From assembly GCA_020697715.1 (NCBI GenBank), contig JAEHCO010000001.1, positions 448,001 through 512,000 on the forward strand: a stretch of DNA of 64,000 nt, in the 5' to 3' direction. Of the stretch, positions 9,508 through 38,460 are shown piece by piece (positions within the stretch are counted from its first letter, which is position 1; each line of letters begins with the position of its first letter). The position numbers and the translations under genes are program-made. This DNA comes from Methanobacteriota archaeon (GTDB taxonomy: Archaea; Thermoplasmatota; Thermoplasmata; SG8-5; JAGLSY01). The notes beneath the pieces were generated by a model. It ran no database searches. It saw only the letters and a list, made by a program, of their open reading frames with translations, and was not told the origin of the DNA.

Positions 9508-10584
9508 ATGGTAGAACAAAAATGCATGATAGTTCATAATCAGAATCACATAGTGCATAGATCGGAGACAACAAGTCCCGAGAACCCGGCCAGAGTATTG
9601 AGGATATTGAGCTTCCTCGATGGTAGATTGAAACTCTTCAAGTCCGGTGAGTTTCAATTGCGAACTGATTTTCCAGATGCGACGGATGAGCAGATACTCA
9701 GGGTCCATGATGAAGAATATTTCAATTTCATAAAGAGATATTGCGAGAATGGAGGGGGCTTTCTCGGAGATAGCACATATTTCGCTCCGTATAGTTTCAA
9801 AGCCGCTAAGAGCGCGGCAGGCGGGGCTATCAAAGCTTCCGATGTCGTGATAGACGGCGAAGTGGATACATCCTTGGCCTTGATCCGGCCACCTGGCCAT
9901 CATGCAAGCAGTGATAAATTCGGTGGCTACTGCATATTCAACAATGCGGCTATCGCAGTACGGAATCTACAGAGTGCGGGCAAGGCGAAGAAGATAATGA
10001 TCCTGGATTTCGACGCCCATGCCGGTAATGGCACAATGCGAGTGTTCTATGACGACCCCAATGTGCTGACCCTTTCCGTACACAGGGATCCTCAGGATTT
10101 CTATCCTCATGATGGCTTCCTTCATCAGATAGGCCGTGGGGATGGTAGAGGATACAATGTGAACATGGAGATGCCTGAAGGAAGTGGCGATGATGATTAT
10201 CTTATGGTTTTCAATCAAATAATCAAACCCATTCACGACTCCTTCTCACCCGATTTCCTGATAACGTCAGTTGGCTTTGACGCCCATTACAGTGATCTAC
10301 AATCCAATATGCAACTCACATCTCATGGCTATTTCGATCTGATAAGAATGACCAAAAAATTACGAAAGGGAAAGCTCCCAGTCATTTTAGAGGGTGGCTA
10401 TACCTCGGAGAATGCTTCTCTCGCGCATACCATTCTTTGCGCTCTTTCAGATAAAACTCCACCTTATGAGGATGATGTCGACAGTCTTAGCAGCTCTATC
10501 ACCAGGACGAGAAAGTCCAGAAGCATACTGGAAGATAATATAAAAGAGCTCAAGATCCTTTTACATGATTATCACACCATCTGA
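9508..10584 (+). CDS. Zn-dependent histone deacetylase-family amidohydrolase
   Basis: PENPARV, RPPGHHA, GGYCIFNN, DFDAHAGNGT, GFDAH, LEGGY; catalytic residues present. Confidence 0.95.
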   Translation: MVEQKCMIVHNQNHIVHRSETTSPENPARVLRILSFLDGRLKLFKSGEFQLRTDFPDATDEQILRVHDEEYFNFIKRYCENGGGFLGDSTYFAPYSFKAAKSAAGGAIKASDVVIDGEVDTSLALIRPPGHHASSDKFGGYCIFNNAAIAVRNLQSAGKAKKIMILDFDAHAGNGTMRVFYDDPNVLTLSVHRDPQDFYPHDGFLHQIGRGDGRGYNVNMEMPEGSGDDDYLMVFNQIIKPIHDSFSPDFLITSVGFDAHYSDLQSNMQLTSHGYFDLIRMTKKLRKGKLPVILEGGYTSENASLAHTILCALSDKTPPYEDDVDSLSSSITRTRKSRSILEDNIKELKILLHDYHTI

Positions 10585-26510: not shown

Positions 26511-26583
26511 AATTACTGCGTGCTCTTCGTAATATTAACTCCTTCAACAACGACATGTGGTGTTTTCACTAGCAATCCAACTT
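26511..26583 (-). repeat. Displaced 73-bp copy of the tldE/pmbA 3' end (direct repeat of 26682-26754)
   Basis: 68/73 identity; the five mismatches are synonymous third-position transitions; encodes the same VGLLVKTPHVVVEGVNITKSTQ-stop. Confidence 0.95.
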
Positions 26584-26585
26584 TT

Positions 26586-26681
26586 CCCACCCCACTTTTT
26601 TCTTTAACCTCGCTGTGCTGGCCGGGCTCCAAAGAAAAAAGACGGACAAATAAAGAAACTCGCCCGTCTCTGCTCGCTCGG
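26586..26681 (-). mobile_element. Short structured repeat element, copy A (pseudoknot/triple-helix candidate)
   Basis: Homologous to 35446-35544; 11-bp stem 26595-26605/26631-26641; second stem 26621-26627/26662-26668; flanked by the 73-bp duplication. The repeat is seen directly; mobility is inferred. Confidence 0.7.
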
Positions 26682-26683
26682 AA

Positions 26684-28006
26684 TTACTGCGTGCTCTTCG
26701 TAATATTAACTCCTTCAACAACGACATGTGGCGTCTTCACCAGTAACCCAACTTCCCACCAACGTATCTGCTCCGGGTCATTCCCAATATGTTTAATTCG
26801 ATTCAACATATCGGGCATATTCTCCGATATCCGAATGTCCTTGACCGCGCCAGTGATCTTCCCATCCTTGATCTCGAAGACCGCGTCCCTGGGGATGGTG
26901 GAGAAATCCCCAGTTTGATAATTCTGGAATCTCGTGTACCACAAGTTCGTGATGTATAGACCATCTTTGATATCCGCTATCATATCATCTTTAGACATGC
27001 TTCCGGGCGTGATAGCGCAGTTCCACGCTCTCGGGAATACCAAACCCGCATTCCCGGTAGATACGGCGTCATTTAGCTTCGCCGTGCTTGTATTGTGCAG
27101 ATAGGTCTTCAATACCCCATTCTCGATTATCACATTCTTCTGGGTCGGTACCCCTTCACCATCGAAAGGAGGGGATACGACCATCTTCGGATCCGTGCCA
27201 TCATCTATCATTGTGAGGAATTCCGGCCCCACTTTCTCACCGATCTTATCCTTGAAGAAGGACATTCCCGCATCCACGCTTCCAGCAGAAGCCGAGCCTG
27301 CAGCTCTTTCCAGGAAATTTGCAAAGGCCAGTGGGGTGAAGAGAACGTCCACCTTCCCTGTTTTTCCCAGGGAAGGGTTCAATGCTTCCTTCGCCATCAT
27401 GCCAGCTTCCATGCCAATTCTTATGGGATCAAGTTCATCCATATTGCTGACTGATTGTACCATGTGCCCGCTGGCTTCCTTGGACGCGAATGCTCTGAGA
27501 GATATGTCCATGTCGGATCCCGTTTGGCTGCCGATAACATCGCCACTGGTGGCCAGATGCACGGTCCCGCTGGATGAATACAAAACTCCGGCGACCCTAT
27601 TGGCCCCATTCCTCATGGCCGAGTCAATGGCCTGGCCAGTAAGTTCAACAAGCTCCCCCTCCAGATCGGAGATCCTCTTATCATGACCCTCATTTCTATA
27701 ATTGAAGGGGCCATCCGCGATCCCCTGGTAATTCTCGCTCTCTGCCATCATCTTGATGAATGCCAGCATATCGTTAATTGTCTTGTCCAGTGTGTGGAGG
27801 TCATTCACACTGGTGTACATGATCTTCCTGTCTTTGGCCAGGAAGATGTCCACCCCGGTGGATTCCCAGGTCTTGGTTATGGCAACCTCGCTATTGGTGA
27901 ACTTCACTTGTTTTCGCTCACCTTCATGAGCTGAACACACAATGTCATCCGCTCCCTTCTTCCTCGCCTGGTCCACCACGTATCCGGGTATATCTGAAAT
28001 ATCCAT
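26684..28006 (-). CDS. pmbA: TldE/PmbA-family protein
   Basis: FDGEGVPT...IIENGVLKTYLHN, STGNAG, TGDFS; no HExxH; paired with TldD. Confidence 0.9.
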   Translation of the reverse strand: MDISDIPGYVVDQARKKGADDIVCSAHEGERKQVKFTNSEVAITKTWESTGVDIFLAKDRKIMYTSVNDLHTLDKTINDMLAFIKMMAESENYQGIADGPFNYRNEGHDKRISDLEGELVELTGQAIDSAMRNGANRVAGVLYSSSGTVHLATSGDVIGSQTGSDMDISLRAFASKEASGHMVQSVSNMDELDPIRIGMEAGMMAKEALNPSLGKTGKVDVLFTPLAFANFLERAAGSASAGSVDAGMSFFKDKIGEKVGPEFLTMIDDGTDPKMVVSPPFDGEGVPTQKNVIIENGVLKTYLHNTSTAKLNDAVSTGNAGLVFPRAWNCAITPGSMSKDDMIADIKDGLYITNLWYTRFQNYQTGDFSTIPRDAVFEIKDGKITGAVKDIRISENMPDMLNRIKHIGNDPEQIRWWEVGLLVKTPHVVVEGVNITKSTQ

Positions 28007-29422
28007 TTATTCACCCCCCAGCTTGATATTCCTCAGCCTGATATGAGGGCCTCCGGTGAACACAGCAATGCCCTGTCCAGGCTCTCCCTTTCCGCAAGTG
28101 GCGGCAGTGAAACCCACTTCTTTTCCAACAGCATCTATCGCGCTCCAGAAGGCTGGTGTGGTCATTTCCAGAATTGGAGCTTTGACCGGCGCTCCGATCC
28201 TGCCATTCTCGATAAGATAAGCCTCTCTGCCGATGTAACGTTGATTGTAACGCTTGTCATCGATATTCCACTCCATGAAGGAGTTCATCAGAACACCCAG
28301 CTTAACATCCTCCACCAATTCTTCTAAAGAATATTCGCCAGGTTTCACATAGGTATTCGCCATCCTGACTATGGCCTCTCGATCGTAATTCTTGGATCGA
28401 GAAGAACCATTGCTCTCCACTCCCATCCTGGCCGCGCTTTCCCTATTGTGGAGGAAATCGTTTATTTTACCATCTTTGATCAATTCTCTGGGTCTGGCCT
28501 CAATGCCTTCATCATCATATAGATAGAACCCGTAGGAATTCTCCAGTGTGGGATCATCTATCACGGTCGCCACTTCACTCCCTATCTGCTGCCCCATCAT
28601 GTCCTCGGATACGAAGGATTCACCGGCCTGGGCGGCTTCTCTTCCCAGTATTCGATCACCCTCATACGGATGCCCACAGCTTTCATGTGCGGCGATGCCA
28701 GTGACTTCCGGCCCCAGCACCATGTCCACCAATTCCTTCGGAGCCTTGATGCCTTCCTTCATGTTCTTGTGTGTCATCTTGATCTCATTGCCCAGAAAGT
28801 GTGATAACTTATCGATATCCATGAACTCCCAGCCACTTGCCGCTCCCAGTTGAAGCATCGCCTGTGCGGTGCGTCCGTCCTCAAGGATGGTTCCCAGCAT
28901 GAACAGATGTAATCTCGGGATACTGGAGGCTATTTTCGACCCCTCGGAATTGCAGAAATATTTCTCCCTATGTTCGATGCCCAGGCTGAAATAACTACCC
29001 ACGAGATTTTCAGATGGCAGGGCCTTCTCTATTTCAGATAAAGCCCTGAGTACATCCTCTGGACCGATATTCGAAATGTTCTTTTTCTGGAAAACACTGT
29101 AATCCTTGATATTGGCCTTTCCCTCGGCGAACTCCAGTGGATTCTTCATGATCCTGGAAGACGCCCTGGCAGTTCTGACACTCCTCTCACATGCGGCCAG
29201 TACGGAATCCCTGTCCAGTCTATTGGTGGATGCGAAGGCCAATGCCCCATTCACCTTCACCCTGATACCGATGCCCGCATCCCGCTCGAATCCAGAGACC
29301 TCGGGGTTGCCATTTTTCAGGAGAGAATCCTGCCCTGAAACGAATTCCATACGTGCCTCTGCGTATTCCGCACCCAGTTCCCGCGCCTTGCTCACTGCTA
29401 TCTCTGCTAGATCTCTATCCAT
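28007..29422 (-). CDS. tldD: TldD-family metalloprotease
   Basis: HESCGHPYEGDR, YDDEG, VRMANTY, CGKGEPGQ...GGPH; ATG 29422 follows GGAGG. Confidence 0.93.
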   Translation of the reverse strand: MDRDLAEIAVSKARELGAEYAEARMEFVSGQDSLLKNGNPEVSGFERDAGIGIRVKVNGALAFASTNRLDRDSVLAACERSVRTARASSRIMKNPLEFAEGKANIKDYSVFQKKNISNIGPEDVLRALSEIEKALPSENLVGSYFSLGIEHREKYFCNSEGSKIASSIPRLHLFMLGTILEDGRTAQAMLQLGAASGWEFMDIDKLSHFLGNEIKMTHKNMKEGIKAPKELVDMVLGPEVTGIAAHESCGHPYEGDRILGREAAQAGESFVSEDMMGQQIGSEVATVIDDPTLENSYGFYLYDDEGIEARPRELIKDGKINDFLHNRESAARMGVESNGSSRSKNYDREAIVRMANTYVKPGEYSLEELVEDVKLGVLMNSFMEWNIDDKRYNQRYIGREAYLIENGRIGAPVKAPILEMTTPAFWSAIDAVGKEVGFTAATCGKGEPGQGIAVFTGGPHIRLRNIKLGGE

Positions 29423-29478
29423 ATCCGATTCCTCCATTTCATTCCGGAATCTTGAAAGCAATCACTATGATCTCGCTT

Positions 29479-30729
29479 TCAAATTTCCTCCTTATATTCG
29501 TCTGTCAATGTCATCTGCCCATCAAATCTTTTCTTCTTGGCCTTCTTTTCGAGGCCTTTCGCTTGTGAGGGAAGCAGAACTTTCCCATATTCGCCCCCTC
29601 CACCGGGAACGATCACGATCTGCCCGCTCCTGAAAGCGTGGATACCACTGGCCACATCATCCCCCACCAGGCCTCGAATATTCTTAATATCAGCTTCAAG
29701 CAAGACCTGGACCTCGTTTCCAAATTCAGTGATAAGCTTCTCCCACACACCCAGCCCTTTTTTGGAATAGGGCGAGGAGATCCCCATCACTTGGTTAATG
29801 ATCTCACCCAGTGGGACTATATGTACGTACTCTGGACGGTGGTCTGGCCTTTTGACAATACCATCGTCGCTAAGCTCCTTCGCCCTATCACGAACACCCT
29901 TCTTAATGGGAGCCAGACAGGAGCATTTCCACCTCCTGGCCAGCGCCTCTTCCAGGGTGTAATGCTCGAAGCATCTGGGGCAAGCGGTCTCATTGTATTT
30001 CCCTTCTTGGGGTGGTAATCCCACATTACGAACGAAGCGCCTTCCCTTTTCTCGTTTTATGGCCATCATCAGCTCATCGAAAGTGATGTCCTTCGCGCGT
30101 ATGGTGTTGAATTCCCTGGCCAGCCTGATCGCATAGGGCGAATGGGCATCGGAATTCGTGAGGAAAGTGATGTCCTGCAATTCTCGAATGAGGTCTCCAT
30201 AATCGCTGTCCGCGCTTAATCCCAGTTCCAGGAACTTGACATCACCAGCTCTGGAGCCATAACATTCTTTCAGGGAACCATAGTGCGCGTACATCCCGGT
30301 CCATGGAGTGAAGGCGTGGGCGGGTCCGATGAAAGCCTCCACATCCTTCGCTAGCTCGGCCAGTTCCTCACCGTTCATGCTCAGATATGGACGTCCATCC
30401 GCCTCAAGGCTTTTGGAATATTTGCCAACCTCTTCCTTGAAGCCTTCGACCGATGATAATGATGGGAAGAAAAGTAGATGATGCACTCGTTTGGCTGCCT
30501 GAACTTCCGTGCTCAGAATGAATCGAGTACCTTCCATTTCAAAAGTACCTTCATCGATCCTTTCAGCCTCTTTCACCTCTGCCAGCCACTTGGAATGAAG
30601 ACAATCGCCACTGGCAAGGAGATCGATCCCCTTCTTACCAGATTCCTTTGCCAATGTCTTGATCCTCATATTGGAACTGGTGGCTCTTGAATAAAGTCCA
30701 TGGATGTGAAGATCAGCATTGAATTCCAT
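29479..30729 (-). CDS. TIGR00375-family PHP-domain protein (endonuclease Q-like)
   Basis: ADLHIHGLYSRATS, GPAHAFTPW, ELGLSADS, NSDAHS, GKY...C..C, PGGGGEYG. Confidence 0.9.
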   Translation of the reverse strand: MEFNADLHIHGLYSRATSSNMRIKTLAKESGKKGIDLLASGDCLHSKWLAEVKEAERIDEGTFEMEGTRFILSTEVQAAKRVHHLLFFPSLSSVEGFKEEVGKYSKSLEADGRPYLSMNGEELAELAKDVEAFIGPAHAFTPWTGMYAHYGSLKECYGSRAGDVKFLELGLSADSDYGDLIRELQDITFLTNSDAHSPYAIRLAREFNTIRAKDITFDELMMAIKREKGRRFVRNVGLPPQEGKYNETACPRCFEHYTLEEALARRWKCSCLAPIKKGVRDRAKELSDDGIVKRPDHRPEYVHIVPLGEIINQVMGISSPYSKKGLGVWEKLITEFGNEVQVLLEADIKNIRGLVGDDVASGIHAFRSGQIVIVPGGGGEYGKVLLPSQAKGLEKKAKKKRFDGQMTLTDEYKEEI

Positions 30730-30751
30730 TGGCTCGACAATGACATCTTAT

Positions 30752-32836
30752 CTAAATATCTTTATGGATGTCGCTCAGTATCTGGGAATTCTCCTTCGGC
30801 AATTCTTCGATCCCTTCGATATCCATTTTCTCATCCAAGTGACTGCCTTGTGTGGTGTCTGGTGCTGTATCGGACACAGTATTCGATACAGTTTCTGTTG
30901 GCATGGCAAGTTCTCCTTCATCAATTCCTTCCTGGAACACTTCCATTTCTTCCGTCTCTTCATCACCTTTCTTATTTCTGATAAATACATAGGCGATCAG
31001 CAGGAATCCGATCGCATTGAATATCAATACCGTGTACAAGACTGGCAGTATGAACCAGGGCTCGCTTTCTATCTCGATGCTGACTTTGTTGACAGACTCC
31101 AGAACATCTATAGTGATAGTTTCCGAATACACTCCAAGGTCACATCTCAGTGTGATATTATGTCCATCTGTGTCCCATGGTGATATCAGGGTCAATTCGA
31201 ACCTTCCATCAGCATCCGTCATGGTGTAAGTCAGGGTTTGATTCTCGCGACCTATGACAGACACCTTCACCTGTTTCATCTCCTTGCCAGTATTGGATAG
31301 GACCTGCCCTTCTATCGTGTATCCCATCTCGGAGTTCAGCCCTTCATTTTGATATGAATGGTTCAATAGCGTTCTGTCACTGTCCCAGCAATAAAATTCA
31401 GCAGTGTATTTTCCAGTCTGGGGTGGGATCCAGGAAAGCCAATCCTCATCTTCAGGAACAGTATCGGCGAATGAATGTTGAAACACTCCTTCATCGTCAT
31501 ACACATCAATTCTGTAATTGGAATAATCTCCTCCAAATACCTTGAACTGGATGACGTCGTTCAGATGATCCGCATCCGTATCCACGCTATCTACATCTAT
31601 CATAAGATCGATCTCTTCTCGGCCTTCCAAATTCCATTTCTCACTGGCAATATCAAGAAATTCATCCCATGCCGTATCTTCTGCAATATCCAGTTGTTTA
31701 TAGTCCAACCACGAGCTGGTCTTCGGGAACCAGATGGACATCCCATTCGCATTGTCAGCGGGCTCGTCCTCATCATTCGGCCTTGTCCAGTGCCTTTCAT
31801 ACACAACGGCTCCCTCTATCGCTTGCTTTAATTTTTCACCGCTTTCCTTTATCTGCGATGAAACAGACACATTGCCCATCATCTGGGTAAAGTGCACCAG
31901 ATCGTATTGATTGGCTCCATCATACTCTTCAGTGATGTATCGAGCTGCTGATATCTCTGGATGGAAAAAACCTACACTGGACCCAAGCTCATTGGCATAG
32001 GAATCCAATGCCTCGGCCACTACATCCATCTTCTCCAATTCAATAAGTGAAAGGGTTGTGGAATAAGCACTATTGGCCATGCTCCACGTCGTATAATCGT
32101 CAATGAACCTCTCTCCAAAATCCTTTGGTAGGATATCAGGATCATCCTTCAGGATATTGAGGATCTTGTCATAGGGCCAGCCAGCCAAAGGCACGTCCTT
32201 CTCAGACCCAATGGCGTATTCGGCATTTCCTCTGAGCTGGTAGAATAATTCCAACATACCCATCTGGCAAGCGTCCATGCTGATGATGTCTATATCCACG
32301 ACATCTTCGGTCGCCGTCAAAGCTCCTTTTAGCTCGACCGCGGACAGCTTATCCCCTTTATCCGGGCAGACACCGGTCCATCCATTTCCATGACCCCACA
32401 GGTCCAGCAAATACCGCTCCGCGGGATATTCATCGACAGCCCATTCGATGAATCTTGTTAGAGTGTCTGGATCACCCATTTCCATCTCATTGCTCCAGCT
32501 CGTGTCGATATCTTCCATGGGGATGGCATCGGTTCCATTTTCGACAATATGAAATACATTGGAATCCCCAACTCCGGATCTATCTGCCAGGACTATTATT
32601 TCCAGACCGTCGCCAGACCCGATATCCATCATCTCTTCCAGATCGGCGGCGACATTATCACTCAATGAATTGTCTCCGGACATGTACACCATCACGGTCC
32701 ATCCAGCTATATCGTCGGCTCTGGTGCCTCCACTGGCATGAGTAAATGAAGGCCCTATCAACATGAGAATTAATAGTACGATCACAAAGATCCCAGCTTT
32801 CGAATCAGCCCTGGGCCTTTGTGCAAATGGCTTCAA
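30752..32836 (-). CDS. Clostripain-like (C11) secreted cysteine peptidase with C-terminal membrane anchor
   Basis: Signal peptide; WTVMVYMSGDNSL, LWGHGNGW, MDACQMG, GSE; TM before an acidic tail. Confidence 0.9.
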   Translation of the reverse strand: MKPFAQRPRADSKAGIFVIVLLILMLIGPSFTHASGGTRADDIAGWTVMVYMSGDNSLSDNVAADLEEMMDIGSGDGLEIIVLADRSGVGDSNVFHIVENGTDAIPMEDIDTSWSNEMEMGDPDTLTRFIEWAVDEYPAERYLLDLWGHGNGWTGVCPDKGDKLSAVELKGALTATEDVVDIDIISMDACQMGMLELFYQLRGNAEYAIGSEKDVPLAGWPYDKILNILKDDPDILPKDFGERFIDDYTTWSMANSAYSTTLSLIELEKMDVVAEALDSYANELGSSVGFFHPEISAARYITEEYDGANQYDLVHFTQMMGNVSVSSQIKESGEKLKQAIEGAVVYERHWTRPNDEDEPADNANGMSIWFPKTSSWLDYKQLDIAEDTAWDEFLDIASEKWNLEGREEIDLMIDVDSVDTDADHLNDVIQFKVFGGDYSNYRIDVYDDEGVFQHSFADTVPEDEDWLSWIPPQTGKYTAEFYCWDSDRTLLNHSYQNEGLNSEMGYTIEGQVLSNTGKEMKQVKVSVIGRENQTLTYTMTDADGRFELTLISPWDTDGHNITLRCDLGVYSETITIDVLESVNKVSIEIESEPWFILPVLYTVLIFNAIGFLLIAYVFIRNKKGDEETEEMEVFQEGIDEGELAMPTETVSNTVSDTAPDTTQGSHLDEKMDIEGIEELPKENSQILSDIHKDI

Positions 32837-33369
32837 AACTCTATCCCCTTCCTTGCCATCATGCCCTTCTGAAATGGATGTTTGATCTCCTTGACCTCGG
32901 AAACATGGTCCGCGATCTCGATAAATTTTTCGTGAGCGTATCTTCCGGTGAGCACCAGTTCCATGCTATCTGGCTTTGAAGAAATAAGGTCAAGCACATC
33001 GTCCAATTCGATGAGCTTCCAATCGACAGCCACATTGATCTCATCCAGAATGAGAATGTCACAAGCATCCTCCTCCACCAGTTTCCTGGCATATTCCAAT
33101 CCTTCCCGTGCCAGCTTGATATCGACCTCTGCCGGGTCTTTCTTATCAACAAAATCCGGTCTTCCAAATTGCACGATGTCGAAACCATCCAGCTTTTTCG
33201 CGGTCTCCAATTCGCCATAATTTATCTGGCCTTTCATGAACTGCACCATGATGACCTTGTAGCCGTGGCCAACGGCTCTGAAAGCAAGACCCATAGCGGA
33301 CGTGGTCTTGCCCTTACCGTCACCCGTGATGACCTGGACCAGGCCCAATCCTCTTTCATCTTCCAACAT
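32833..33369 (-). CDS. cobO: Cob(I)yrinic acid a,c-diamide adenosyltransferase
   Basis: TGDGKGKTTSAMGLAFRAVGHG, ILDEI, LTGRYA, KHPF...GIEF; start reset to ATG 33369. Confidence 0.95.
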   Translation of the reverse strand: MLEDERGLGLVQVITGDGKGKTTSAMGLAFRAVGHGYKVIMVQFMKGQINYGELETAKKLDGFDIVQFGRPDFVDKKDPAEVDIKLAREGLEYARKLVEEDACDILILDEINVAVDWKLIELDDVLDLISSKPDSMELVLTGRYAHEKFIEIADHVSEVKEIKHPFQKGMMARKGIEF

Positions 33370-33452
33370 CAGACTTACTATGTTAAAGTCAAATATAATA
33401 CTTATCTCAGAAAGATTTAAAAGGCATCGGGGGATTGATAACCCTCGATAAT

Positions 33453-34364
33453 ATGAACATCGAGACATCCATCGCTGGCTTGAAAATGGAAAATCCAACC
33501 ATGCTGGCATCCGGAATTCTGGGCCAGACTGGCCGATCTCTTTTGCGCGTCGCCAAGGAAGGCGGTGCAGGTGCTCTTGTAACGAAGTCGATCGGCCTGG
33601 AAGCAAGAACAGGCCATGGGAATCCTGGTATTCTGGAATTGGATACCGGGCTGCTCAATGCGATGGGACTTCCAAACCCCGGCATTGATGATTTTGAGGA
33701 AGAAGTGCAGATCGCCAGGCGATCGAATGTTCCAATTATCGGCAGTATTTTCGCCTCTTCTCCCGATGATTTCGCTAATCTGGCTAGCAGAATGGCCGGT
33801 CACGGTGCGGATGCTATCGAGCTCAATCTAAGCTGCCCTCACGCACAGGGTTATGGGGTGGAGATGGGCAGTGATCCAATTATTGTAGAATCTATTGTGA
33901 AAACAGTCGTGGAAGCGATCCAAATTCCGGTATTCGCCAAGCTCAGCCCCATGGTGCCAGATATAGCGTCGATCGCCCTGGCAGTGGAGAAAGGCGGGGG
34001 CCACGGGGTAGTCGCGATAAACACCATGAGGGGCATGAGCATCGAGCCCGAAATGGGCATGCCAGTCCTTAGTAACAAAATAGGCGGTTTGAGTGGGCCA
34101 GCTATCAAGCCCGTGGGTGTGAGAGCGGTTTACGAAATAGCACAAAAGGTCAAGATCCCCATAATCGGAGTAGGTGGGATAAACACTGGCAGGGATGCGA
34201 TCGAGTATATCATGGCTGGAGCCAACGCGGTGCAGATCGGAAGCGGCGTGCATTATCGCGGTATCGATATCTTCAAAAAGGTCAGCCAGGAAATTCAAGA
34301 CTTCATGCAGAAAAATAATTACAGCCAGCTTGATGAGATGATAGGCATTGCGGGGGTGAAGTAA
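33453..34364 (+). CDS. pyrD: Dihydroorotate dehydrogenase B catalytic subunit
   Basis: NPTMLASG, NAMGLPNPG, ELNLSCPH, GGLSGPAIKP, IIGVGGI. Confidence 0.96.
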   Translation: MNIETSIAGLKMENPTMLASGILGQTGRSLLRVAKEGGAGALVTKSIGLEARTGHGNPGILELDTGLLNAMGLPNPGIDDFEEEVQIARRSNVPIIGSIFASSPDDFANLASRMAGHGADAIELNLSCPHAQGYGVEMGSDPIIVESIVKTVVEAIQIPVFAKLSPMVPDIASIALAVEKGGGHGVVAINTMRGMSIEPEMGMPVLSNKIGGLSGPAIKPVGVRAVYEIAQKVKIPIIGVGGINTGRDAIEYIMAGANAVQIGSGVHYRGIDIFKKVSQEIQDFMQKNNYSQLDEMIGIAGVK

Positions 34365-35167
34365 TGGGCCATCATCATCAAAATGCCAAGATGCACGCGG
34401 TTACCATACTGGCCAATCGCCCCGAGGCCGCTAATATCTTCACATTGGAGATCGACTGGATACCTCGGGACAAACTCCTCGGTGGGCAGTTTGTAATGAT
34501 CTGGATACCAGGTGTGGACGAGATACCAATGAGTCTTTCATCGGCCAATACAACTTCAACATTGACCATCCAGAAGGTGGGTGAGGCATCCGAGACTCTC
34601 GGCCGAATGAAACCAGGCGACAAGATCGGAATAAAAGGTCCCTTCGGCAAAGGTTTTGAACCAACTGGCCAGAATTTACTTTTCATCGCTGGCGGGGTGG
34701 GAATAGCTCCTCTCATGCCCGCTATAGTAACTGCCCAGGAACAGGGGAAGGAAATAACACTGGCCATTGGCGCGGCCAGTGGTGATGCGATCGCTTTCCG
34801 TGATAAACTGACCAGCATGGGCATCGATATCAGAATAGCAACGGATGATGGCTCTGAAGGACACAAGGGTTTTGTCACAACCCTTGTGGAAGAATTACTG
34901 GCAGGTGGAAATTATGATCAAATACTGACCTGTGGCCCGGAGATCATGATGGCCAAACTTTTGGAACTGGCGAATCTGAATAAAATTCCGATCCAATGCT
35001 CCCTCGAGCGCTACATGAAATGCGGAATGGGCATCTGCGGTTCCTGCGATATCGATGGGCTGCAAGTGTGCAAGGATGGCCCTGTTTTCGATGGCCAGAC
35101 ACTTGCAGGGCTTGAGGATTTCGGTAAGAGCAAGAGGGACAGATCGGGGAAGAAGATTGGTTTTTAA
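34364..35167 (+). CDS. pyrK: Dihydroorotate dehydrogenase electron transfer subunit
   Basis: GQFVMIW, GPFGKGF, GGVGIAP, CGPEIM, CGMGICGSC...CKDGPVF. Confidence 0.95.
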   Translation: MGHHHQNAKMHAVTILANRPEAANIFTLEIDWIPRDKLLGGQFVMIWIPGVDEIPMSLSSANTTSTLTIQKVGEASETLGRMKPGDKIGIKGPFGKGFEPTGQNLLFIAGGVGIAPLMPAIVTAQEQGKEITLAIGAASGDAIAFRDKLTSMGIDIRIATDDGSEGHKGFVTTLVEELLAGGNYDQILTCGPEIMMAKLLELANLNKIPIQCSLERYMKCGMGICGSCDIDGLQVCKDGPVFDGQTLAGLEDFGKSKRDRSGKKIGF

Positions 35168-35218
35168 CTCATTTATTCTTACTGAGATATTAGTTTGTTA
35201 AGATGGGTGTGGATAAGG

Positions 35219-35284
35219 ACTCCGCCCCTGCTTTGATCGGGGCGGGGTTTGATTTGACTCCTCGCTCTCTCAATGTGAGGAGTT
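35219..35284 (+). terminator. Two GC-rich hairpins downstream of pyrK (terminator and/or part of a structured RNA)
   Basis: ACTCCGCCCC/GGGGCGGGGT (35219-35248) followed by TTGATTTG; GACTCCTCGC/GTGAGGAGTT (35256-35284); G-U pairs favour the + strand. Confidence 0.5.
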
Positions 35285-35445
35285 TATCTTCTTACTGGAA
35301 CATCGCAACTGTCACTCGAATTCTCATCGAATATATTACCCCGACCCTGCGTCACTCGGGACGGGGCATGTTTGTATTGTTACGTATTCACATTGTTGGG
35401 AACCTGCTCTGCTGGCACATCATTTTTCGCCCTCCCGGCTCCGCC

Positions 35446-35544
35446 CCCACCCCAATTTCTTCTTTTTAACCTCGCTGTGCTGGCCTGGCTCCAAAAAGAA
35501 GAAGAAGGGTAACAAGAAAAACTCGCCAGGCGCTGCTCGCTCGG
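35446..35544 (-). mobile_element. Short structured repeat element, copy B
   Basis: Shares CCCACCCCA, TTTAACCTCGCTGTGCTGGCC.GGCTCC, AAACTCGCC and CTGCTCGCTCGG with copy A; stems 35457-35467/35493-35503 and 35483-35489/35525-35531. Confidence 0.7.
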
Positions 35545-35652
35545 CAATATATTGAGAGACTGCATTTACAAAGCCCCGTACCACTTTCTTTATATATTAC
35601 ACAAAATCTTGTACCAACAATCCTTTATAAGCAAATACGATTAGTATAGTTC

Positions 35653-38460
35653 GTGAAGAGTGGAAGAGTAGTTTCAATTATTATCGTGGCCATCATGGTC
35701 TTACCATCATTGGCCATGATGACCTCATCCCAGGAGGTTGGAGAGGCTGGAGAGGTTGATGATCTCGCCTACACACTCCGACTAGCCATGCAGGATGATC
35801 TCAAGACCCTGAATCCACTGGTGGCTGCCGATATCTGGACATGGCACGTGATCCAGTGGATATACGACAAGCCAGTGTATGAGGATATGGAAACAGGCGA
35901 ATTGGTTCCTTACATCGCTTACAAATCCGGCAATTCCTCGGTTCTTTTTGGATATGACCCAGCGGAGAACTGGGCCGATCCAGCAAAGCCAGAAGCTACA
36001 ATTTATTATGACTTCGAGAATGTGAAATTCCATGACGGCCATCAGATGGATATCCGCGATATTTTATTCTCATACCACGCGGCAGCCCGGCACCGGGTTT
36101 GGCGCGGGGATGTCGAATGCCTGGTGGACAATGGCAGCTTCACAAATGGGAATTACACCGATGACAACTGGCTCCACATCGAAAAGACATGGGAGAGTGA
36201 GGATCATATGCAAGCGACTCTCAAATTCACACTCCAGAATCCATATTACAATTTCTTCAGGATCACACTGGCTCCAAGGATTCTGCCATATCATATCTGG
36301 GGAAATACAACTGCCAAGCAAAATATCGACAATGCGAAGATCTGGCTGGATGTTGGCTATGCCCCATCCAGTCTGGATTCATGGAGCTTTGAAAAGGCAT
36401 ACGCATGGGATAATACAGAATCGATTGGTAGCGGGCCTTTCATGTTCGATTCCTGGCATCCCGGGATAAGCTCGAAGATACTCACCTACCGAGATCATTT
36501 TTACAAGGAAGGATTCAAGCATGACCCAGACAATGCCAGGCAGCCGATGATCAATGCTATTGTTTTCAAAATATACAAGACAGCGGAAACATCTGTCTTA
36601 TCACTAAAAAACAACGATATCGATATGCTTTTATGGACAATCCCTCCAACCTTCGTTCAGGAAATAATGAATGATCCAGATCTTGAGGTCAAACAATCTG
36701 CTGAAAAAGGATTTAGTTACCTTGGATATAATATGAGATCTGATAGAAGATCATTCGGCTATGATGAGAATGGAGTAGATATTGGTAAACCACTCAGACA
36801 TGCAATCGCCCACTGTATTGATAAGATGGCCATATCATCAAGATTATTACAGAATTTTGCAATTACAGGTGATGGGCCAGTGTCTTCTATAAGTACATGG
36901 TACAATGATAGCATCCCACATTATTCCTTTGATCCTGAAGGGGCCATAGTCATCCTGAGAGATGCAGGTTATCTATTGACCGATCCAGGAGCCGAGCCAG
37001 GTGTTGGTAATTGGTGGCTGAACCCCGATGGCTCCCATATCGGAAATGGCGATTATGGAAAGATCGAGATACTCACGCCACCTGCAGATTATGACCCCAT
37101 ACAGGCCCAGCCCGGCTTGATGATTGCCAAGCAGATGCAAGATATCGGCCTAAATGCGGAATCCATCGCCATGGACTATGGCACGATCAAAAATCATGTG
37201 CACCAAAGGGATTTCGACATGTACATGCATGATTGGACCATTGCCAGTGATCCCACGGAGTTCTTGTATGATTTCTTCCATTCCAATAATCTGGATGGTC
37301 ATAATCATCCAGGATATTCAAATGCCAGTTTCGATGCCATAATGGATGGGGCAAGGGCAACATGGGATGAGGATGAGAAACTTCAACTGATCAAGGATGC
37401 CCAGGCCTCGCTTGCATATGATCTGCCATATGATGTGCTCAATTTCAGAACCAATATCGAGGCCTATCGTGCAGATCGATTTGATGGCTGGGTGAATGGG
37501 CCAGCTGGATCCATATACAATTGGGGTTCGATCATCGACCTGAGGCCGATTTCTTCGATCACCCACTGGCTCAGTGCCACCCTGGTGAACACTCCCTCGG
37601 CCGTGAGCTCCAATTCCACCGTGGATGTTTCAGTCAAGGTCACCAGCATTGTCAAGCAGGAAGACGGGACATTGGTCCGGACACCTGCGATTGGGGCATT
37701 TGTCGAGATGGCTGTGACAGATGGCACTCTTTCAGAATATAATGGAACCACGGATGCTGGCGGGATATTCAGAACAAGATACACCGCCCCCTTTGTTCCA
37801 TCAATTACCGAATTTGTGAAAGATGGCCACAATATCCTCATTGAAATCAAAAGTGTGGAAATGGATGGATACGAGCCAGCTCCGAATGAACTGACCCTGT
37901 TGACCGCGTACCCTGAAAAAGTGCGATTCCTCACCATAAGGATGGAAGCAGAGCCCGATGTCATAACTGATAATGATACTGCTGGAAATCTAGGTTTGGC
38001 CAGTATTATCGTGATTGTCACAGATCAAGATAATTTCCCTGTAGCAGGAGCCACTGTCGCCATACAGATCGATCCTCAGGGCCCCCCTGTGACACCAATT
38101 ACAGGTCTAACAGACGAATCTGGCATCATGATTTTCCAGGTGAAATCAGTAGATCTTCAAGAGGATCGTGAATACACGGTCAGCACAATAGCTTTCAAAA
38201 ACGGGTACAAGAATGGCACCCAGTCCTCTCAACTTATGATCATAGACAATATTGCTTCGACCCTGGATGTATCTGACCCAGATCTTGACGAAGACCCCGA
38301 ATTTGAAGATCCCGATGAACTTGTTAATGATGGAGAAAGCAGTCTATCACAATCGTCTACTGCCATGAAATTCATATCTGGAATTATAGTACTGGCAATT
38401 GTGTCAATATTGATCCTTCTATCTGCTTTCAAATTCTATCAAGATAATAGAAGACCTTAG
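35653..38460 (+). CDS. ABC-type peptide substrate-binding protein (family 5) with Ig-like C-terminal domains and TM anchor
   Basis: Signal peptide, TLNPL, KFHDGHQM, IGSGPF, LRHAIAHCIDK, GYSNASFD; beta-rich tail; C-terminal TM. Confidence 0.9.
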   Translation: MKSGRVVSIIIVAIMVLPSLAMMTSSQEVGEAGEVDDLAYTLRLAMQDDLKTLNPLVAADIWTWHVIQWIYDKPVYEDMETGELVPYIAYKSGNSSVLFGYDPAENWADPAKPEATIYYDFENVKFHDGHQMDIRDILFSYHAAARHRVWRGDVECLVDNGSFTNGNYTDDNWLHIEKTWESEDHMQATLKFTLQNPYYNFFRITLAPRILPYHIWGNTTAKQNIDNAKIWLDVGYAPSSLDSWSFEKAYAWDNTESIGSGPFMFDSWHPGISSKILTYRDHFYKEGFKHDPDNARQPMINAIVFKIYKTAETSVLSLKNNDIDMLLWTIPPTFVQEIMNDPDLEVKQSAEKGFSYLGYNMRSDRRSFGYDENGVDIGKPLRHAIAHCIDKMAISSRLLQNFAITGDGPVSSISTWYNDSIPHYSFDPEGAIVILRDAGYLLTDPGAEPGVGNWWLNPDGSHIGNGDYGKIEILTPPADYDPIQAQPGLMIAKQMQDIGLNAESIAMDYGTIKNHVHQRDFDMYMHDWTIASDPTEFLYDFFHSNNLDGHNHPGYSNASFDAIMDGARATWDEDEKLQLIKDAQASLAYDLPYDVLNFRTNIEAYRADRFDGWVNGPAGSIYNWGSIIDLRPISSITHWLSATLVNTPSAVSSNSTVDVSVKVTSIVKQEDGTLVRTPAIGAFVEMAVTDGTLSEYNGTTDAGGIFRTRYTAPFVPSITEFVKDGHNILIEIKSVEMDGYEPAPNELTLLTAYPEKVRFLTIRMEAEPDVITDNDTAGNLGLASIIVIVTDQDNFPVAGATVAIQIDPQGPPVTPITGLTDESGIMIFQVKSVDLQEDREYTVSTIAFKNGYKNGTQSSQLMIIDNIASTLDVSDPDLDEDPEFEDPDELVNDGESSLSQSSTAMKFISGIIVLAIVSILILLSAFKFYQDNRRP

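What the first reader, a model, noticed from the sequence alone, without database searches (positions are those of the whole stretch)
26586..35544. Twice-repeated ~97-nt element whose copies co-vary for a pseudoknot with a triple helix
Seen: copies at 26586-26681 (A) and 35446-35544 (B). On the minus strand the layout is S1 - Y1 - Y2 - GGA - S1' - linker - R - (G/T)TGGGGTGGG. Stem Y2:R is 11 bp in both copies but changes on both arms: A CTTTTTTCTTT/AAAGAAAAAAG, B TTCTTCTTTTT/AAAAAGAAGAA. Stem S1 crosses it: B GCCTGGC/GCCAGGC (7/7), A GACGGGC/GCCCGGC (6/7), with a T-A to G-C compensatory swap. This gives H-type pseudoknot topology. Loop Y1 is a mirror repeat of Y2 and tracks the purine strand in parallel register: A TTTCTTTATT over AAAGAAAAAA, B TTTTTCTTGTT over AAAAAGAAGAA, so the third strand co-varies too. 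Established: this is the geometry of U.A-U/C.G-C major-groove triplexes in the telomerase pseudoknot and ENE elements. Inference: a non-autonomous mobile RNA or ssDNA element selected for structure. No transposase or RT lies in the window. Only two copies support the covariation.
Basis: partly seen in the sequence, partly recalled or inferred. Interest (0 to 1): 0.88.

Follow-up and report, generated by a model that had tools for sequence, protein, structure and literature searches.

The report
Archaeal mobile element with triple-helix pseudoknot
The two repeats are copies of a small mobile element, found only in Thermoplasmata archaea, whose single strand folds so that its A-rich tail is clamped between two U/T-rich strands, a shape known so far mainly from RNA-stabilising elements of eukaryotes and their viruses.

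Summary
Both copies are real. They belong to a family with 19-20 copies in this 2.1 Mb genome, present in 21 of 22 genomes of its order and 32 of 151 sampled Thermoplasmata. It has no Rfam match, and none in the viral contigs scanned. Covariation supports two nested helices, and also a crossing helix between the loop's second pyrimidine tract and the 3' A-rich tract. The first pyrimidine tract tracks the purine tract in parallel register across 57-67 sequence classes, so a 9-10-layer major-groove triplex is the best reading. G.T wobbles and tandem G.A pairs show that the window's minus strand is the one that folds. About half the copies sit between direct repeats of 13-126 bp that duplicate a gene or tRNA end. 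The 3' junction is exact; the 5' side carries a variable leader. Related genomes show sites lacking the element. The genome has no reverse transcriptase, DDE transposase, TnpB or Cas1. Most likely this is an ENE+A-like 3'-end cap on a transcript, carried by a mobile element with an unknown insertion route. Whether RNA or ssDNA folds is untested. The scan had already met this family elsewhere in this genome (e1-5102698).

The parts
26592..26681 (-). Copy A, element proper (90 nt), 3' UTR position directly after the stop codon (26684-26686) of the 440-aa ORF 26684-28006
   Evidence: borders from the flanking repeats
26676..26681 (-). A: outer helix P1, 5' strand (pairs with 26608-26613; contains tandem G.A)
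26662..26670 (-). A: stem S1, 5' strand (pairs with 26620-26627), followed by tandem G.A 26660-26661 / 26628-26629
26648..26658 (-). A: first pyrimidine tract (Y1), proposed Hoogsteen strand
26631..26647 (-). A: linker (26642-26647) and second pyrimidine tract Y2 (26631-26641), Watson-Crick strand of the pseudoknot
26592..26605 (-). A: A-rich tract R (26595-26605) plus 3-nt 3' extension (26592-26594) that pairs with the linker; last bases of the mobile unit
26682..26760 (-). A: left direct repeat, the working 3' end of the upstream gene (79 nt)
26511..26591 (-). A: right direct repeat, displaced copy of the gene end (81 nt; 74 identical)
35451..35544 (-). Copy B, element proper (about 94 nt), no flanking repeat, 110 nt upstream of and divergent from the ORF starting at 35653
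35511..35521 (-). B: first pyrimidine tract (Y1)
35493..35510 (-). B: linker (35506-35510) and second pyrimidine tract Y2 (35493-35505)
35451..35467 (-). B: A-rich tract R (35457-35467) and 3' extension (35451-35456) whose last three bases pair with the linker
35525..35544 (-). B: P1 5' strand (35539-35544), conserved internal loop (35534-35538), S1 5' strand (35525-35533); partners at 35470-35475, 35476-35481, 35482-35489

Best explanation
A and B are two of about 20 copies of a 90-105-nt non-autonomous mobile element restricted, as far as searched, to Thermoplasmata archaea.

Shown in silico: the sense strand (the window's minus strand) forms an outer helix P1 with tandem G.A pairs, a strongly conserved 5x6-nt internal loop, and a 9-bp stem S1 capped by two more G.A pairs. 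It also forms a pseudoknot helix of up to about 16 bp. That helix joins the second pyrimidine tract plus the linker to the A-rich tract plus the element's last 3-7 bases.

Inferred from three-strand covariation: the first pyrimidine tract lies in the major groove of that helix, parallel to the purine strand. This gives about 9-10 U.A-U and C+.G-C triples. The architecture is that of ENE+A elements such as MALAT1 and the ENEs of transposon RNAs, with a short linker in place of the apical stem.

Inferred function: the element is transcribed as the tail of the upstream gene. The triplex hides the 3' end, or blocks 3'-to-5' exonucleases, which stabilises the element's transcript and the mRNA it trails.

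Shown: it inserts at gene and tRNA ends and duplicates 13-126 bp of target. Its 3' junction is exact and its 5' side carries a variable leader.

Unknown: the enzyme. I lean towards a host-enzyme-dependent route, because the genome lacks RT, DDE transposase, TnpB and Cas1.
For: Family: 19 copies by nhmmer. The covariance model finds 20, 39, 34, 11 and 22 copies in the five genomes of the family. It matches 21 of 22 genomes of the order and 32 of 151 sampled in the class.

P1 and S1: 75.3% of cells are paired against 54.0% when shuffled, 15 of 17 pairs change on both sides, 297 cells are compensatory, and 0 of 500 shuffles reach this.

Strand: 26 G.T wobbles against 4 A.C. Tandem G.A/A.G is present in P1 in 65 of 84 copies, replaced by Watson-Crick pairs in 18. 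It caps S1 in 73 of 84.

Pseudoknot: a copy's own 3' tail binds its loop at -16.8 kcal/mol, against -12.0 for swapped tails, and is better than the median swap in 95% of 77 unique copies. On alignment A6, 88.7% of cells pair against 71.9% shuffled. Of 15 pairs, 13 change on both sides, with 292 compensatory cells against 94. No shuffle of 500 reaches this, and slid controls score 0.07-0.16 against 0.455. The distal pairs swap whole motifs, for example GGAA/TTCC, GTAA/TTAC and CTAA/TTAG.

Third strand: in 57 classes, the run lengths of Y1 equal those of R in 33 and 39 classes, against 11.4 and 17.4 when permuted; 0 of 20000 permutations reach this. The mean uninterrupted canonical triple run is 9.34, against 8.19 +/- 0.10 permuted (0 of 5000). 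Opposite A in R, Y1 has T 297, A 23, C 6, G 3. Opposite G it has C 89, G 35, T 4, A 2. Parallel register beats antiparallel in 23 classes and loses in 4 of 67.

The mobile unit ends with the pseudoknot's last pair: the right repeat starts 0-12 nt after it.

Position: 12 of 17 own copies have a same-sense ORF on the 5' side, 8 of them within 30 nt of its stop.

Mobility: flanking repeats occur in 13 of 19 own copies and in 35 of 71 copies family-wide above the best null score. Sites without the element at the same loci are seen in G001, G003 and G004.

In-place conservation: copies at the same site in G000 and G002 are 99%, 91% and 94% identical, against 78-90% for their flanks, and their stem differences are compensatory.
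Against: No expression data exist, so no RNA, RNA 3' end or stabilising effect has been seen.

The T-runs of Y1 and Y2 on the sense strand look like archaeal oligo-T terminators (recalled knowledge). They might stop transcription before the A-rich tract is made.

No T-run or other obvious 3'-end signal follows the element.

Copy B and 4 other own copies do not trail a same-sense ORF, although one of those four trails a same-sense tRNA.

Y1 usually carries one interrupting purine. It has G rather than C opposite G in 35 cells, which is not a canonical parallel triple.

Because the tracts are low-complexity and near mirror-symmetric, parallel and antiparallel runs tie in 40 of 67 classes.

The permutation tests are not corrected for shared descent. 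A6 was fitted to the pseudoknot and contains 3 antisense rows.

With only 1-4 nt between P1 and the A-rich tract, P1 and the pseudoknot can coexist only if the internal loop is a sharp bend. Otherwise they are alternative states.

Single-sequence folding is weak evidence: z = -3.05 for A sense, with a different nested fold, and -0.99 for B.
Confidence: 0.55

Rival explanations
1. The fold belongs to single-stranded DNA. On this view the element moves as ssDNA, and the pseudoknot and triplex are the recognition or protection structure for a strand-specific enzyme. One candidate is the solitary IS200-type Y1 (HUH) transposase, acting like a RAYT on REP elements.
For: G.T wobbles, tandem G.A pairs and T.A-T triples are as possible in DNA as in RNA, and strand asymmetry is shown. 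The genome holds one solitary Y1_Tnp gene without TnpB. In G002 a partial copy lies about 300 nt downstream of that gene. Y1_Tnp occurs in 21 of 32 element-positive genomes against 33 of 119 element-negative ones.
Against: Y1 transposases insert without target duplication (recalled knowledge), whereas repeats of 13-126 bp are seen here. Family f12 holds the element in 7 of 7 genomes but Y1_Tnp in only 1 of 7, and there as fragments. G032, with 8 copies, has none. No copy lies near the gene in G000, G004, G021 or G006. In-place conservation of copies at shared sites points to a function at the locus.
Confidence: 0.15
2. The element is a SINE-like retroposon. Its RNA, stabilised by the triplex, is copied into DNA at nicked gene ends, which would give the exact 3' end, the variable leader and the variable duplications.
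For: It has an exact 3' junction, 5' heterogeneity, variable target duplications, an A-rich 3' part, and microhomology at both junctions. Fold selection acts on the sense strand. In 3 of 3 insertions after tRNA genes, the duplicated tRNA end starts in the T-loop and differs from the gene at positions about 56-58. Those are sites of base modification in archaeal tRNA (recalled knowledge).
Against: No RVT_1 domain is in this genome at 93.8% completeness. It occurs in only 2 of 22 genomes of the order, and in 0 of 7 high-quality ones, while 21 of 22 hold the element. The 5' leaders are unique in the genome. No 5'-truncated series was seen.
Confidence: 0.15
3. There is only a pseudoknot or hairpins, and no triplex. 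The mirror relation of the first tract would then arise from other causes: oligo-T terminator function on both strands, slippage, or an alternative pairing.
For: The tracts are low-complexity. Parallel and antiparallel runs tie in 40 of 67 classes. Non-canonical G opposite G occurs in 35 cells, and there is an interrupting purine. The antisense of the A-rich tract supplies a T-run directly after 7 convergent tRNA genes.
Against: The C or G of Y1 moves with the G of the purine tract through about 12 different spacing classes. In asymmetric classes Y1 cannot pair antiparallel. No other purine partner exists in the element.
Confidence: 0.12
4. It is a DNA-level H-DNA or fork-stalling element. The mirror repeat forms a triplex in duplex DNA, stalls replication, and provokes template switches that produce the duplications and arrays.
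For: The two pyrimidine tracts are a mirror repeat. Tandem arrays and 1.4-unit structures occur. Decayed tandem gene-end copies without an element are seen in G002.
Against: H-DNA needs only the mirror repeat. It explains neither the covarying P1, S1 and distal pseudoknot pairs nor the third, purine copy on the same strand.
Confidence: 0.05

Closest known systems
ENE+A elements: MALAT1 / MEN-beta 3' ends and the double ENE+A of plant and fungal transposon RNAs (Tycowski et al. 2016, as cited in PMC13541005, passages read)
   Same: A stem carries two U-rich strands that clamp a genomically encoded A-rich tract lying 3' of the stem. The 5' U-rich strand is Hoogsteen and the 3' one Watson-Crick. 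There are about 10 triples with an interspersed C+.G-C, and the structure is carried by mobile elements.
   Different: The element is archaeal. The apical stem is reduced to a 5-10-nt linker (two hairpins in the long variants), so it is formally an H-type pseudoknot. The helix continues into non-A/U pairs with the last bases of the element. There is an extra outer helix with tandem G.A. No poly(A) or RNase P processing is evident, and stabilising activity is untested.
H-type pseudoknots with major-groove triples (telomerase RNA, SAM-II / preQ1-II riboswitches)
   Same: The topology is S1, loop 1 in the major groove of S2, with U.A-U triples parallel to the purine strand.
   Different: Those have 3-6 triples and sit in single-copy genes or 5' leaders. 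This one has 9-10 triples, is multi-copy, sits at gene 3' ends and is mobile.
Bacterial REP/BIME (REPIN) elements with RAYT
   Same: Both are small structured repeats at gene ends. REPs protect upstream mRNA from 3' exonucleases (recalled knowledge). A single-copy Y1 transposase homologue is present in the genome.
   Different: This element has no palindromic doublet. It has long target duplications, and its co-occurrence with Y1_Tnp is imperfect.
IS1634 / IS1549 and 'insertion with long target duplication' (named in earlier scan notes e1-5102698 and e1-3112347; papers not read here)
   Same: They produce long target duplications of variable length.
   Different: Those elements have inverted ends and a DDE transposase. 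Here there are no inverted ends, and no DDE_Tnp_1 or rve domain in the genome.
SINEs / non-LTR retroposition
   Same: Shared features are an exact A-rich 3' end, variable duplications, 5' heterogeneity and dependence on a partner.
   Different: No reverse transcriptase is present, and the duplications are much longer.

Membership tests
ENE+A type triple-helix element | Two U-rich strands held by a flanking stem | tested here: met
   Y1 and Y2 lie inside the covarying stem S1.
ENE+A type triple-helix element | A-rich tract pairs Watson-Crick with the 3' U-rich strand | tested here: met
   Of 15 pairs, 13 covary and 0 of 500 shuffles reach the score. Own tails beat swapped tails in pairing energy.
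ENE+A type triple-helix element | 5' U-rich strand forms Hoogsteen U.A-U / C+.G-C triples | tested here: inconclusive
   Parallel covariation is strong. However, it is sequence-based only, with G opposite G in 35 cells and one interrupting purine.
ENE+A type triple-helix element | A-rich tract is at the RNA 3' terminus and the element raises RNA stability | not testable with these tools
   No sequencing run was listed. The mobile unit does end with the pseudoknot strand.
H-type pseudoknot | Two helices whose strands interleave, each supported independently | tested here: met
MITE | Terminal inverted repeats, a short fixed target duplication, and a related autonomous IS | tested here: not met
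   The ends are unrelated. Duplications span 13-126 bp. No DDE_Tnp_1, rve or TnpB is present.
SINE-like retroposon | Reverse transcriptase available in the host | tested here: not met
   RVT_1 is absent from G000 and present in 2 of 22 genomes of the order.
REP/RAYT system | Single-copy Y1 transposase that co-occurs with, and is flanked by, the repeat | tested here: inconclusive
   One Y1_Tnp gene is present. It occurs in 21 of 32 element-positive against 33 of 119 element-negative genomes. It is flanked by a partial copy only in G002, one of five genomes checked.
Any Rfam 15 family | Match at the gathering score | tested here: not met
   Only a tRNA matches in the window. The best E-values on the two copies are 0.85-8.6.

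The most novel reading that the evidence does not exclude
This would be the first ENE+A-type 3'-end triple helix outside eukaryotes and their viruses. It would be carried by an archaeal element that spreads without reverse transcriptase or transposase, by an RNA-templated, host-polymerase route that co-copies the 3' end of the neighbouring host transcript. The duplicated tRNA ends that begin in the T-loop and differ at positions 56-58 in 3 of 3 events would then be scars of reading through modified bases.
Probability: 0.12. Interest if true: 0.95.

Novelty: new variant of a known kind. Interest (0 to 1): 0.8.

Why it matters
Long major-groove RNA triple helices that cap 3' ends are known from a few eukaryotic lncRNAs, viruses and transposon RNAs. 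The 2026 review I read in passages (PMC13541005) lists prokaryotic triplexes only in riboswitches, in the passages seen.

A family with hundreds of natural variants showing three-strand covariation would be a ready-made data set for the rules of triplex formation. It would include what is tolerated opposite G and at the interrupting purine. It would also extend this way of protecting RNA to Archaea.

Separately, the element spreads in genomes that lack the usual mobile-element enzymes, and it rebuilds the gene ends it lands on. That points to an undescribed insertion route. The same route may also underlie similar gene-end-duplicating elements that the scan noted in CPR bacteria and DPANN archaea.

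Tried and rejected
Rfam: searches at gathering score and at permissive E-values found nothing for the element.

Sequencing runs: none was listed for the copy A locus, so there is no expression evidence either way.

Viral contigs: the first pattern gave 2 stretches, and both failed the covariance model. It returned 13 true archaeal loci and 11 bacterial chance hits. The corrected pattern gave 0 viral contigs.

5' leaders as transduced donor flanks: the 5 leaders tested are unique in the genome. A few copies in other genomes share upstream but not downstream sequence. One G003 subfamily sits in a larger conserved unit. This was not resolved.

Flanking repeat for copy B: none was found within 600-745 nt.

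Split long copies that could hold an ORF: none were seen. Long variants are 150-170 nt, with two extra hairpins in the linker.

K-turn reading of the G.A pairs: rejected by inspection, because no 3-nt bulge adjoins them.

Riboswitch reading: rejected, because the element is multi-copy, lies at 3' ends and is mobile.

Single-sequence MFE folds cannot hold both helices and were not informative.

Literature: no listed paper described a Thermoplasmata repeat or an archaeal ENE. One search failed on a term format and was not repeated. Supplements were not consulted.

The coordinates were read by hand instead.

Full report
**Observation.** Reading the rulers, the element proper is 26592-26681 (copy A) and about 35451-35544 (copy B), both on the minus strand.

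First, an outer helix closes the whole element. Second, in copy A the G-rich bases just beyond the A-rich tract are not element. They are the start of an 81-nt copy of the upstream gene's last 79 nt.

**Family.**
- The window is part of a 2.12 Mb, 34-contig genome that is 93.8% complete.
- nhmmer finds 19 full copies and some partial ones. A covariance model built from 18 copies finds 20.
- The model finds 11-39 copies in each of the other four genomes of the family. It matches 21 of 22 genomes of the order, with 334 matches, and 32 of 151 genomes sampled from the class, in eight families.
- A pattern scan of one genome per species returned 24 stretches. The 13 that pass the model are all Thermoplasmata, Thermoplasmatota or Methanomassiliicoccales MAGs. 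The 11 with bacterial titles and the 2 viral contigs fail.
- That pattern had the stem one base too long, so it undersampled the family. The corrected pattern finds no viral contig.
- Rfam has nothing for the element.
It calls it a structured mobile element duplicating a gene end, and does not mention the pseudoknot or triplex.

**Nested helices and strand.** This was counted on 84 model-aligned copies.
- The outer helix and stem S1 pair in 75.3% of cells, against 54.0% in shuffles. Of 17 pairs, 15 change on both sides, with 297 compensatory cells, and no shuffle of 500 reaches this.
- Two positions of the outer helix are G.A/A.G in 65 of 84 copies and Watson-Crick in 18. Two more G.A pairs cap S1 in 73 of 84.
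- G.T wobbles outnumber A.C mismatches 26 to 4.

**Pseudoknot.** After a small internal loop it continues between the linker and the last 3-7 bases of the element. These distal pairs swap whole motifs between subfamilies.
- A copy's own tail binds its own loop at -16.8 kcal/mol on average, against -12.0 for tails of other copies (77 unique copies).
- A second model built on this helix aligned 105 rows. On these, 88.7% of cells pair against 71.9% shuffled. Of 15 pairs, 13 change on both sides, 0 of 500 shuffles reach the score, and slid controls are far lower.
- Caveats: this alignment was fitted to the helix, and three antisense rows were not removed.

**Third strand.** I anchored the three tracts on their first non-T or non-A base.
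- In 57 distinct classes from 76 copies, the run lengths of the first tract equal those of the purine tract in 33 and 39 classes. Permutation gives 11.4 and 17.4 (0 of 20000).
- The Watson-Crick tract scores 48 and 43 on the same measure.
- Allowing one bulged purine, the uninterrupted run of canonical triples averages 9.34, with a mode of 10. Permuted tails give 8.19 +/- 0.10.
- Opposite A the first tract has T in 297 of 329 cells. Opposite G it has C in 89 and G in 35 of 130 cells.
- One copy has lost the C, the G and the C together.
- In asymmetric classes the first tract cannot pair antiparallel. Parallel wins in 23 classes and loses in 4 of 67, with 40 ties.
- A major-groove triplex is the natural reading. 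The tests are not corrected for descent, and no physical evidence exists.

**Geometry (inference).** Only 1-4 nt join the outer helix to the A-rich tract. Both can therefore form at once only if the conserved internal loop is a sharp bend. Otherwise they alternate.

**Mobility.**
- Thirteen of 19 own copies lie between direct repeats of 23-81 bp. Family-wide, 35 of 71 copies with enough flank exceed the best null score, with repeats of 13-126 bp.
- The right repeat starts 0-12 nt after the last pseudoknot base. The left repeat ends up to 220 nt before the element, or overlaps its first bases by up to 12 nt. Any sequence in between is a leader unique in the genome.
- The repeats are ends of genes or tRNAs. 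By my reading, the left repeat ends within 3 nt of the stop codon in about 7 own copies. Twice the leader supplies a new stop.
- Sites without the element at the same loci exist in related genomes. A second insertion at the same tRNA in G002 shows that the leader is part of the inserted DNA.
- Seven copies in the 90 loci scanned, plus one more by eye, sit tail-to-tail on a tRNA 3' end without repeats.
- Tandem arrays and nested insertions occur. Unequal crossing-over between the long repeats would explain them.
- In one site shared by G000 and G002, the two repeats are identical within each genome but differ between genomes. That indicates concerted evolution.

**Enzymes.**
- The genome has no RVT_1, TnpB zinc-ribbon, DDE_Tnp_1, rve or Cas1 domain. 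It has one tyrosine recombinase and one solitary Y1_Tnp gene.
- RVT_1 occurs in 2 of 22 genomes of the order.
- Y1_Tnp occurs in 21 of 32 element-positive and 33 of 119 element-negative genomes. It is missing from six of the seven f12 genomes sampled, all of which hold the element.
- No known route fits.

**Function.**
- Twelve of 17 own copies follow a same-sense ORF, 8 of them within 30 nt of its stop.
- Copies at shared sites in G000 and G002 are 99%, 91% and 94% identical, while their flanks are 78-90% identical. Their stem differences are compensatory.
- This argues for selection at the locus. Together with the ENE+A-like architecture, it argues for a 3'-end cap or exonuclease block on the transcript.
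- Against this stand the T-runs that may terminate transcription early, the copies that do not trail a gene (including B), and the lack of any RNA data.

**Verdict.** The element is a new variant of known kinds: a triple-helix 3' element, and a small non-autonomous mobile element. It occurs in a domain of life, and with an insertion pattern, not described in the papers I could search.

Noticed in passing
window 35170-35445 (minus strand, directly 3' of copy B): There is a second, unrelated repeat family of about 185-230 bp with GC-rich hairpins. It has at least 10 copies in this genome and more than 20 in G002. It also lies directly 3' of the triple-helix element on contigs C22 and C15.
   Followed up: partly
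window 35187-35300 (+): There is a weak Rfam match to Pseudomon-1/ErsA (36.9 bits, gathering score 50, E 1e-5) inside that second repeat. It is probably a chance or structural likeness.
   Followed up: no
window about 35566-35606, and G000:C29 about 70700-70900: A roughly 40-nt TATA-like sequence upstream of copy B is 88-90% identical to the direct repeat flanking the nested array on contig C29. It is either a shared promoter-like target or transduced sequence.
   Followed up: no
L031, L010, L146 (tRNA loci of G000 and G002): In 3 of 3 insertions after tRNA genes, the displaced tRNA-end copy begins in the T-loop. It carries an extra T or an A-to-G change at about positions 56-58 relative to the working gene.
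   Followed up: partly
L149 (G001:C46 about 1640-1680): The orthologous tRNA in G001 carries a roughly 32-nt insert inside its T-loop, possibly a non-canonical intron.
   Followed up: no
G000:C1:16359-16709 (L166 2306-2977, minus): A solitary IS200-type Y1 transposase gene without TnpB lies next to msrA/msrB-like ORFs. Similar genes with similar scores, in one to three copies, occur in most genomes of the order.
   Followed up: partly
L179 (G002:C2 about 9749-9769 and flanks): At a site where G000 holds an element, G002 has none. Instead it has 2-3 decayed tandem copies of the gene's last ~16 nt, possibly footprints of earlier insertions and losses.
   Followed up: no
L045, L060, L040 (G003), L074 (G011): One subfamily sits inside a larger conserved unit of about 240 nt. 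Its upstream module repeats the element's 5' motif, and it has a G-run-rich downstream module. The 3' flank of copy B resembles that downstream module.
   Followed up: no
L124 (G002 orthologue of copy A), L032, L015: Long variants of 150-170 nt carry two extra hairpins between the two pyrimidine tracts. The G002 orthologue of copy A is such a variant and has lost its 3' half.
   Followed up: partly
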